Made by a program: the position numbers and the translations under genes. The notes below the pieces were generated by a model. It saw only the letters and a list, made by a program, of their open reading frames with translations, ran no database searches and had not been told where the DNA came from. 64,000 nucleotides of DNA from Paraspadella gotoi (lineage: Eukaryota; Animalia; Chaetognatha): contig CM119269.1 in assembly GCA_051294375.1 (NCBI GenBank), positions 11,762,883-11,826,882 of the forward strand, given 5' to 3'. Positions 32,373 to 33,032 of this stretch are shown one piece after another. How positions within the stretch are numbered: position 1 is the first letter of the stretch; every line of letters begins with the position of its first letter.

Positions 32373-33032
32373 TGGTGGAGTAAAATCCACCAACCGTTCA
32401 TCAGCGGCCATTTTTTGGTGCCGGAGGCAAGTCAATCGCCTCCCAACCCAAAAGTCCGGGGTTCGAGCCCGGTGATCGTCTGGCAGTTAAGAGGGACGGG
32501 GCGCTTAACCCGCCTGTAACATGGTGTTACAGCCTGATCCGAAGCTCAGGGACTGCTTATATTGAACGGTTCTGTCATTAACACTTATCAATAATTACTG
32601 TCTCTTCATATGTGGTAGCCCGACTTCCGAACACAACAGCAACAACAACGCTTTCAGGCGACATGCCTCAACCTGGCGATGCACTTTTCGCCCACAACAC
32701 ATCAGGCGACATTCCTCAACTTGGTGACGAACTTTCCACCAACAACAACAATTCACTGAGAGACTCAACAGACTTCTCCCTACGGGAGGGGGGATGAATG
32801 GTGGAGTAAAATCCACCAACCGTTCATCAGCGGCCATTGGTGCCGGAGGCAAGTCAATCGCCTCCCAACCCAAAAGTCCGGGTTCTAGCCCGGTGGTCGT
32901 CTGGCAGTTAAGAGGGACGGAGCGCTTAACCCGCCTGTAACAAGGTGTTACAGCCTGATCCGAAGCTCGAGGGACTGCTTATATTGAACGGTGTCGTGTC
33001 ATTAACACTTATCAATAATTACTGTCTCTTCA
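32373..33032 (+). mobile_element. Intact TRIM (miniature non-coding LTR retrotransposon)
   Basis: LTRs 32373-32608 and 32799-33032 (both TG...CA); PBS-like TGGTAGCCCGAC at 32613; polypurine tract GGGAGGGGGGA at 32784-32794; flanks AATCTA/AATCAA. Confidence 0.92.

What the first reader, a model, noticed from the sequence alone, without database searches (positions are those of the whole stretch)
32373..33032. Miniature LTR retrotransposon (TRIM) family with a tRNA-like cloverleaf in each LTR
Seen: a 660-bp non-coding element with two ~235-bp TG...CA LTRs, a PBS-like site, a polypurine tract and a ~190-bp interior. Five copies or solo LTRs occur in this window (3111, 6297, 12119, 28598, 32373). 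About 30 bp into each LTR is a ~71-nt domain (e.g. 32830-32900) with a 7-bp acceptor-like stem GCGGCCA/TGGTCG(C/T), a T-stem CCGGG/CCCGG around a B-box-like GGTTCGAGCCC, and TCGCCTCCCA. The 28.7-kb copy varies (GCGACTA/TGGTCGC) but still pairs. Knowledge: TCGCCTCCCA matches the anticodon region of tRNA-Gly(CCC), and plant Cassandra TRIMs carry a 5S rRNA Pol III promoter in their LTRs. Inference: this may be an animal tRNA-based counterpart, a SINE-LTR hybrid transcribed by Pol III and mobilised in trans. I cannot tell whether it has been described.
Basis: partly seen in the sequence, partly recalled or inferred. Interest (0 to 1): 0.82.

Follow-up and report, generated by a model that had tools for sequence, protein, structure and literature searches.

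The report
tRNA-headed mini-retrotransposon carrying twister ribozymes
A small, abundant, protein-free jumping element of an invertebrate carries in each end repeat a tRNA-like segment, as the known Helenus elements do, followed by a twister-type RNA fold that is predicted to cut itself, so the two repeats would likely pair and cut out a 421-base RNA that may circularise for copying, a design our searches found described only for plant elements with a different ribozyme.

Summary
The element is real: a 662-bp TRIM (32371-33032) with two LTRs, a tRNA-Trp primer site, a polypurine tract and 4-bp target duplications. Its ends are TA...CA, not TG...CA. The tRNA part is not a cloverleaf, and the quoted B box is private to one LTR. 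It keeps the catalytic G, the U-A-A site and both pseudoknots, with compensatory changes in a second LTR family, a tandem repeat and two metagenome contigs. In all five lineages stem P1 is replaced by a different self-complementary hexamer. The two LTRs of one transcript would likely pair and excise a 421-nt unit that may circularise, as in plant retrozymes. A published wasp Helenus consensus has an unremarked hammerhead core in the same slot (read by eye). Cleavage, dimers, circles and Pol III use are untested, and Rfam does not hit the LTR motif itself. This scan already noted the same element type on other pieces of this genome. Verdict: new variant of a known kind.

The parts
32367..32370 (.). 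left 4-bp target site duplication (AATC)
32371..32608 (+). 5' LTR of copy A (TA...CA)
   Evidence: contig break-offs at 32371 and 32608
32404..32479 (+). tRNA-derived segment, 5' LTR; strict B box at 32460-32470 (private variant); private T6 run at 32411-32416
32483..32556 (+). type-P5 twister fold, 5' LTR: P5 32483-87/32552-56, general-base G 32495, T1 32497-99/32539-41, self-complementary hexamer 32500-05, predicted cut 32506|32507, T2 32512-13/32544-45, P3 32514-32532, P4 32533-37/32546-50
32613..32624 (+). primer-binding site, tRNA-Trp type (degenerate in this copy)
   Evidence: compared by eye with Fig. S2 of PMC10886601
32609..32796 (+). non-coding interior with a 46-nt internal duplication (32654-32699 / 32702-32747)
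32784..32794 (+). polypurine tract
   Evidence: sequence
32797..33032 (+). 3' LTR of copy A
32830..32900 (+). tRNA-derived segment, 3' LTR
32904..32978 (+). type-P5 twister fold, 3' LTR; predicted cut 32927|32928; one extra base in P4
32507..32927 (+). predicted unit-length RNA (421 nt) between the two cut sites
   Evidence: inferred
33033..33036 (.). right 4-bp target site duplication (AATC)
6297..7584 (-). copy B: full element, 3' LTR interrupted by a ~630-bp insert with inverted ends; flanks AGGG/AGGA; T1 broken in its 5' LTR
12117..12509 (+). copy C: 5' LTR plus interior fused to the last bases of the 3' LTR; TSD GTCG; twister degenerate
28595..28821 (-). copy D: solo LTR, TSD ATTT; one T1 mismatch
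3111..3318 (-). copy E: solo LTR, flanks GAGA/TAGA; ~20-nt deletion in the twister
16087..16141 (+). fragment of the LTR 3' end
49481..49747 (-). solo LTR of a second family: TSD CTCT, strict A and B boxes, twister fold at 49553-49631 with compensatory changes
52145..52202 (+). P5 twister in an unrelated ~330-bp repeat (further copies 58962-59019, 61066-61123, 61389-61446, all minus strand); Rfam Twister-P5 25.8 bits, below the 37.6 gathering score

Best explanation
This is a Helenus-type TRIM whose LTRs each hold a tRNA-derived segment, likely a Pol III promoter, followed by a twister fold that is predicted to self-cleave, so the element likely works as an animal LTR retrozyme. Shown: LTRs, 4-bp TSDs, Trp-type PBS, PPT, many copies, and a twister core on the sense strand whose P1 is reduced to a self-complementary hexamer. 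Inferred steps: (1) a transcript starts at or upstream of the 5' tRNA segment and runs through both LTRs. (2) The two hexamers pair into one shared 6-bp P1, giving two domain-swapped twister cores. [quoted passage not shown] (4) A host ligase closes it; the circle has one hexamer with no loop, so it would resist recutting, and solo LTRs in host introns would cut poorly. (5) tRNA-Trp primes reverse transcription by a Gypsy-type partner, and running round the circle restores both LTRs with their promoter before integration with a 4-bp duplication. My odds: Helenus-type TRIM 0.93; twister-class fold 0.9; cleaves in active copies 0.7; pairing needed 0.5; circular template 0.45.
For: A twister descriptor gave 6 hits in the window against a mean of 0.27 (maximum 2) in 60 block shuffles; all 6 lie in the two LTR families or the tandem repeat. 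Rfam Twister-P5 hits the tandem-repeat motif (E 9e-4 in a 181-nt search) and L004 (E 0.026). A model built from those two lineages alone, with no LTR sequence, ranks the 7 LTR copies that keep the segment at ranks 5-11 of 17 (E 5e-4 to 0.11; next hit 1.5). Pair table: the general-base G, U-A-A and L4 adenines are kept, and T1, T2, P2 and P4 show double-sided changes between lineages; P5 does too. The layout matches tested Schistosoma twisters (Table 1 of PMC8501958), and imperfections in P1, P2 and P4 are tolerated in natural twisters (PMC11662667). The P1 hexamer has a Watson-Crick palindromic core in 5 of 5 lineages, each time with different letters; no search asked for that. In the metagenome scan 2 of 40 hits met the unspecified pairings and both had perfect palindromes, against 0 of the other 38; L004 is a 974-nt unit with a 123-nt terminal repeat. 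With helices enforced, the swapped dimer folds at -192.7 kcal/mol against -187.3 for two monomers, and the 421-nt circle folds better than 100 of 100 shuffles (z -2.9). Among the variant rows shown for four runs, the only mixed site inside 32483-32556 is in the P3 loop (34 rows not shown). The second family has strict A and B boxes, an 18-nt PBS matching the published Trp PBS at 17 positions in one contig, and a two-LTR joint in 3 of 4 runs. Published Helenus-2_SyJa and -2_SyUm have a hammerhead core in the same slot and the same primer (by eye).
Against: No cleavage, RNA or circle was observed. Rfam does not hit the LTR motif even in an 88-nt search at E 10, and its hits on the other lineages are below the gathering score. 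The descriptor was written after I had seen the motif. In one search the LTR alignments shown match only the P5/P2/L1 part and skip P4/L4; E-values are rough. P2 has 3 pairs and a bulge instead of 4 pairs, and the L4-closing pair is A-U in both LTR families where G-C is described as nearly invariant. Unconstrained folding of the two-LTR transcript gives neither ribozyme fold: MFE -209.9 kcal/mol, hexamer duplex probability 0.006 (pseudoknots not scored). P1 is dispensable in tested twisters, so monomers may cut. Only 2 of 7 family-1 LTRs pass the descriptor. B's and C's 5' LTRs share a broken T1, which would count against the model if that variant was mobile. In run X1, 12% of depth in family 2 changes the second A of U-A-A; the other three runs show almost none. 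Family-1 A and B boxes are degenerate, and copy A has T6 and T4 runs that would stop Pol III; both runs are minority or private variants.
Confidence: 0.55

Rival explanations
1. The twister cuts, but only to make the 3' end. The LTR has no T-run terminator behind the tRNA segment, so a cut in the 3' LTR ends the RNA, leaving about 100 nt of terminal redundancy, and copying follows the ordinary linear strand-transfer route without a circle.
For: No T4 lies downstream of the twister in either LTR of copy A or in the family-2 LTR, whereas most described animal Helenus LTRs that I read end in a short T-rich tail after the tRNA part (by eye). A singly cut RNA keeps U3, R and U5.
Against: Both LTRs carry the same motif, and the swapped dimer builds two equivalent cores; nothing visible would silence the 5' one. 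L004 has the same variant once per apparently circular or tandem unit.
Confidence: 0.2
2. An ordinary Helenus: the twister came in as a passenger with a SINE or tandem repeat that inserted into an ancestral LTR, and it no longer matters for transposition.
For: Kojima proposes SINE insertion as the origin of Helenus. The same twister variant sits in a tandem repeat in this window. 5 of 7 family-1 LTRs fail the descriptor, and B5 and C5 share a broken T1.
Against: Two LTR families whose sequences differ widely keep every core position, with double-sided changes and different palindromes. The majority letters in four runs keep the fold. B5 and C5 also share a PBS change and B5 is only 77% identical to its own 3' LTR, which fits decay and local gene conversion better than an active dead-ribozyme subfamily (inference).
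Confidence: 0.2
3. The fold is not a twister but a chance or unrelated structure, such as a packaging or dimerisation signal with a kissing palindrome.
For: No Rfam hit on the LTR motif; the isolated motif folds no better than shuffles in family 1 (z -1.1). Retroviral RNAs dimerise through short palindromes (recalled, no call).
Against: All twister landmarks are present in order, with both pseudoknots complementary; the model without LTR sequence picks out the LTR copies; 6 hits against 0.27 expected.
Confidence: 0.05

Closest known systems
Helenus TRIMs / TRIMp3 (Kojima 2024, PMC10886601; main text parts 1-4 of 6, supplement parts 1, 6, 7 of 11 and searched passages)
   Same: Under 1 kb, two LTRs with a tRNA-derived segment, PBS, PPT, no ORF, 4-bp TSD as in animal Helenus, tRNA-Trp PBS as in Helenus-2_SyJa and Gypsy-32_NVi.
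   Different: LTRs start TA, not TG; the tRNA segment lies near the LTR start with about 130 nt behind it that hold a twister fold. The main text has 0 mentions of twister. Motif searches of the consensus file showed no twister core in the passages displayed (only the first 3 places per term were shown, and line breaks can hide a match). Annelids and gastropods are not among the listed hosts.
Helenus-2_SyJa and Helenus-2_SyUm (gall wasps; consensus in the supplement of PMC10886601)
   Same: tRNA segment followed by a self-cleaving ribozyme core in the LTR, Trp PBS, 4-bp TSD (hammerhead read by eye: GUC site, CUGAUGA, GAAA, stems I-III).
   Different: Type III hammerhead, not twister; TG start. 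The paper's main text names hammerheads only in a reference title.
Plant LTR retrozymes (Cervera 2016, PMC4918200, passages; review PMC7761336, passages)
   Same: Non-coding, a ribozyme in each LTR, PBS, PPT, 4-bp TSD, Gypsy dependence; unit-length RNA between the two cut sites.
   Different: Hammerheads, tRNA-Met primer, 600-1000-nt circles shown by experiment, no tRNA-type promoter described. The 2020 review says metazoan retrozymes lack LTR, PBS and PPT.
Type-P5 twister ribozyme (Rfam RF02684) and Schistosoma T-variants on RTE elements (PMC8501958, abstract and sections 3, 17, 19)
   Same: Order of elements, catalytic G, U-A-A, both pseudoknots, P3, P4, P5.
   Different: P1 is a 6-nt palindrome with no loop, P2 has 3 pairs and a bulge, T1 and the L4-closing pair are changed; it sits in an LTR, not at the 5' end of a LINE.
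Dimer-only minimal hammerheads of Penelope-like elements and amphibian retrozymes (passages of PMC7761336)
   Same: A stem too weak for a monomer is supplied by pairing of two tandem copies.
   Different: Hammerhead helix III, non-LTR hosts; dimer cleavage is tested there and only predicted here.
Cassandra TRIM (as described in PMC10886601)
   Same: TRIM with a small-RNA-derived Pol III promoter in its LTRs.
   Different: 5S rRNA-derived, plants, transcription shown; no ribozyme described.

Membership tests
Helenus (TRIMp3) | TRIM: two LTRs, about 1 kb or less, no coding capacity | tested here: met
   662 bp; no ORF of 100 aa on the sense strand, one 127-aa stop-free frame on the antisense strand
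Helenus (TRIMp3) | PBS and PPT | tested here: met
Helenus (TRIMp3) | 4-bp TSD in animals | tested here: met
   3 exact and 2 near-exact of 5 family-1 copies; exact in the family-2 LTR
Helenus (TRIMp3) | tRNA-derived LTR segment with A and B boxes | tested here: inconclusive
   Family 2 has strict A and B boxes. Family 1 keeps GGTTC and an acceptor-like stem, but strict boxes occur in only 1 of 7 LTRs each; no ARAGORN or Rfam tRNA hit
Helenus (TRIMp3) | Pol III transcription (not validated for Helenus either) | not testable with these tools
   needs RNA ends or Pol III assays
twister ribozyme, type P5 | General-base G, A+1, A+2, L4 U and A-A in order | tested here: met
twister ribozyme, type P5 | Pseudoknots T1 (3 bp) and T2 (2 bp) | tested here: met
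   complementary in both LTRs of copy A and in family 2, with double-sided changes; broken in B5, C5 and D
twister ribozyme, type P5 | Stems P2, P4, P5 | tested here: met
   P4 and P5 full; P2 3 pairs plus bulge
twister ribozyme, type P5 | Intramolecular P1 hairpin | tested here: not met
   6 nt with no loop; can pair only with a second copy. P1 is reported dispensable, so I call it a variant fold, not a canonical member
twister ribozyme, type P5 | Rfam RF02684 gathering score | tested here: not met
   no hit on the LTR motif; 25.8 and 24.2 bits against 37.6 for the related lineages
twister ribozyme, type P5 | Site-specific self-cleavage | not testable with these tools
   bench assay needed
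LTR retrozyme | Non-autonomous LTR element with a self-cleaving ribozyme motif in each LTR, sense strand | tested here: met
   motif level only
LTR retrozyme | Ribozyme is a hammerhead | tested here: not met
   no hammerhead hit in Rfam scans; twister instead. It works like a retrozyme but is not filed as one in the strict sense
LTR retrozyme | Unit-length circular RNA in vivo | not testable with these tools
   only contigs were available; no run on record as RNA
tRNA-derived SINE (independent insertion) | Own TSD and tail, independent of the LTR | tested here: not met
   the segment sits at the same place in 7 of 7 family-1 LTRs that span it; the family-2 piece has LTR-type ends, a 4-bp TSD and a PBS-bearing relative

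The most novel reading that the evidence does not exclude
Animals have their own LTR retrozymes with a built-in Pol III promoter, and they arose more than once: with a twister here and a hammerhead in gall-wasp Helenus. The twister is a two-copy switch. Its palindromic P1 forms only when both LTRs are in one transcript, so full elements are cut to a circle while solo LTRs and the finished circle are spared. The same loop-less palindromic twister marks a wider class of circular or tandem RNAs.
Probability: 0.35. Interest if true: 0.85.

Novelty: new variant of a known kind. Interest (0 to 1): 0.68.

Why it matters
It would join two separately described element types, Pol III TRIMs and retrozymes, and extend LTR retrozymes to animals, which a 2020 review says lack them. 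It would give the twister ribozyme a second defined job in retrotransposition, and a natural dimer-dependent form that a short in vitro assay can test. The hammerhead core in a published wasp Helenus suggests that ribozymes in TRIM LTRs have been overlooked in repeat libraries. If the ribozyme is dead, the locus is only a new Helenus family.

Tried and rejected
No genome is held for this window, so there is no genome-wide consensus, copy number or covariation test. ARAGORN and Rfam tRNA: nothing. Rfam on the LTR twister alone: nothing relevant. Exact family-type pattern in metagenome contigs: 0 hits. Twister patterns in viral contigs: 13 and 2 hits, 0 of 15 with the required pairings. No RNA holder listed; X9 is only guessed to be RNA, so nothing is claimed on expression. 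MAFFT misaligned P3 and L4 across lineages, so pairs were tabulated by script instead; the C5 row is a mis-parse and I read C5. L034 was left out of model R1 because it misaligned. TG...CA ends were rejected because the TSDs register only with a TA start. A SINE reading of 49481-49747 was rejected. No autonomous partner was found: among 10 of the 60 stop-to-stop frames scanned against Pfam, only one MFS fragment hit. Literature searches for this combination listed no paper describing a twister in an LTR element; the library holds only open-licence PMC papers and bioRxiv, and Repbase and Dfam could not be searched. Supplement parts 2-5 and 8-11 of PMC10886601 were seen only as search passages.

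Full report
Observation. Copy A has two LTRs identical at 226 of 232 aligned bases, an interior of about 190 bp with a 46-nt duplication, and a polypurine tract. The true start is 32371. With a TA start the flanks give AATC/AATC, GTCG/GTCG, ATTT/ATTT, AGGG/AGGA and GAGA/TAGA, and contigs from public runs break off at 32371 and 32608. Between 1,009 and 15,663 contigs per run lie on the element in four runs of one organism, so it is an abundant repeat; this is not a copy number. A sialin-like exon in the window has its best named relatives in an annelid and in gastropods, so the host is probably a lophotrochozoan.

The tRNA-like part. The acceptor-like stem and GGTTC are present, but ARAGORN and Rfam find no tRNA, and the supposed anticodon region folds into a hairpin. 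The strict B box is in 1 of 7 family-1 LTRs, and the majority letter at 32465 removes it. The primer site matches the tRNA-Trp site printed for Gypsy-32_NVi and Helenus-2_SyJa. The piece at 49481-49747 is a solo LTR of a second family: CTCT duplication, strict A and B boxes, the same terminal bases at the 3' end, a contig that continues into an 18-nt Trp PBS, and a two-LTR joint in 3 of 4 runs.

What is known. TRIMs with tRNA-derived LTR segments were named Helenus by Kojima 2024 (PMC10886601; I read parts 1-4 of 6 of the text and parts 1, 6 and 7 of 11 of the supplement). Animal members make 4-bp duplications and share PBSs with Gypsy elements.

Directly behind the tRNA segment each LTR has the parts of a type-P5 twister ribozyme in order: P5, P2, G-A plus three T1 bases, six bases, U-A-A, P2, two T2 bases, a P3 hairpin, P4 with its L4 loop, and P5. 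A descriptor taken from the Rfam layout gives 6 hits in the window against 0.27 in shuffles: both LTRs of copy A, the family-2 LTR and three copies of an unrelated ~330-bp repeat (written after seeing the motif). Rfam scores the repeat's motif as Twister-P5 below the gathering cut-off and does not hit the LTR motif, probably because its model has no P3 (inference). A model built from the repeat and from locus L004 only ranks the seven LTR copies that keep the segment directly after the four repeat copies, though the alignments shown cover only the first half of the fold. Between lineages T1, T2, P2 and P4 change on both sides. The layout matches Schistosoma twisters (PMC8501958, Table 1). Large-scale tests show that P1, P2 and P4 imperfections are tolerated while catalytic and pseudoknot positions are not (PMC11662667, sections 32-33); copy A and family 2 keep those positions.

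The palindrome. Where P1 should be there are six bases and no loop. The inner four are a Watson-Crick palindrome in family 1, family 2 and the repeat, with different letters each time. As an outside test I scanned metagenome contigs with a pattern that fixed the length but not the letters of this hexamer. Of 40 hits, 2 met the pairings that the pattern left open, and both have perfect six-base palindromes; 0 of the other 38 do, nor do any of 15 viral-contig hits, none of which met the pairings. Many of the unstructured hits are repeats of each other. L004 is a 974-nt unit with a 123-nt terminal repeat and no long ORF.

Mechanism. In a transcript with both LTRs the two hexamers can form one 6-bp helix, and all helices of two domain-swapped cores nest without conflict; with helices enforced this arrangement is 5.4 kcal/mol better than two monomers. 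Cuts at both U|AA sites give 421 nt with no terminal redundancy, which ordinary strand transfer could not copy. Plant retrozymes solve this by circularisation and tRNA-primed reverse transcription round the circle (PMC4918200, passages). The circle would also carry the promoter from the 3' LTR back into daughter copies. All of this is inferred. The dimer logic has precedent in minimal hammerheads.

Against. Unconstrained folding does not give the ribozyme fold (hexamer duplex probability 0.006). P1 is dispensable, so pairing may not be needed. Only 2 of 7 family-1 LTRs pass the descriptor, and B5 and C5 share a broken T1; they also share a PBS change, and B5 is 77% identical to its own 3' LTR but 91% to C5, which I read as decay plus gene conversion without proof. 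One run shows a change at A+2 in 12% of family-2 depth. Family-1 promoter boxes are weak. There is no RNA evidence.

A parallel. A note from this scan pointed to Helenus-2_SyJa. Its published LTR, and that of Helenus-2_SyUm, show by eye a complete type III hammerhead core just behind the B box, with a Trp PBS and 4-bp TSD. The paper does not remark on it. Two ribozyme classes in the same slot argue for function.

Novelty. Eight literature searches listed no description of a twister in an LTR element or of an animal LTR retrozyme; a 2026 TRIM paper treats Helenus and retrozymes separately (PMC13570524, passages). Subscription journals, Repbase and Dfam were not searchable. I recorded my reading before opening the scan's notes; 29 notes on this genome fit the look-up and the 8 shown make the same proposal. 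They are unreviewed and are not counted as support. Verdict: a new variant of a known kind; interest 0.68.

Noticed in passing
window 60998-61510, 58903-59234, 51935-52262, 16043-16297: A ~330-bp repeat, tandem at 61 kb, carries the same loop-less palindromic P5 twister; it looks like a non-LTR retrozyme with a twister instead of a hammerhead.
   Followed up: partly
L004 387-445 (minus strand): Metagenome contig of 974 nt plus a 123-nt terminal repeat, with one palindromic-P1 twister and no long ORF; a candidate circular or tandem RNA.
   Followed up: partly
L034 48-118 (minus strand): Second metagenome hit with the same twister variant in an AT-rich contig with no repeat partner.
   Followed up: partly
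supplement of PMC10886601, Helenus-2_SyJa-LTR and Helenus-2_SyUm-LTR: Unremarked type III hammerhead core behind the tRNA B box, with 12 complementary bases between loops I and II; read by eye.
   Followed up: partly
supplement of PMC10886601, Ajax-1 LTRs: Both Ajax LTRs contain TAACCCGCC followed by a hairpin, as in the twister's second half, but I saw no L4 motif; possibly chance.
   Followed up: no
window 49559-49642, record 30: A 3,622-nt contig in run X9 matches only the family-2 twister segment, with 15 differences and higher depth than most pieces listed; a longer element may share the ribozyme.
   Followed up: no
window 7184-7584 and 12117-12505: Copy B's 5' LTR and interior resemble copy C more than B's own 3' LTR, suggesting gene conversion between nearby inverted copies or an assembly chimera.
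   Followed up: partly
window 6319-6948: A ~630-bp AT-rich insert with inverted ends sits in copy B's 3' LTR; relatives near 15047-15605 and 47093-47543.
   Followed up: no
window 50648-55076 and 56075-60522: A 4.4-kb inverted duplication, 98.7% identical, around small assembly gaps; real foldback or assembly artefact.
   Followed up: no
window 627-1636 (minus) and 11407-11718 (minus): Exons of a sialin-like MFS transporter; the 11.5-kb piece is judged by eye only.
   Followed up: partly
window 30031-31862 (plus): Two overlapping AT-rich stop-free frames of 322 and 309 aa with no Pfam hit.
   Followed up: partly
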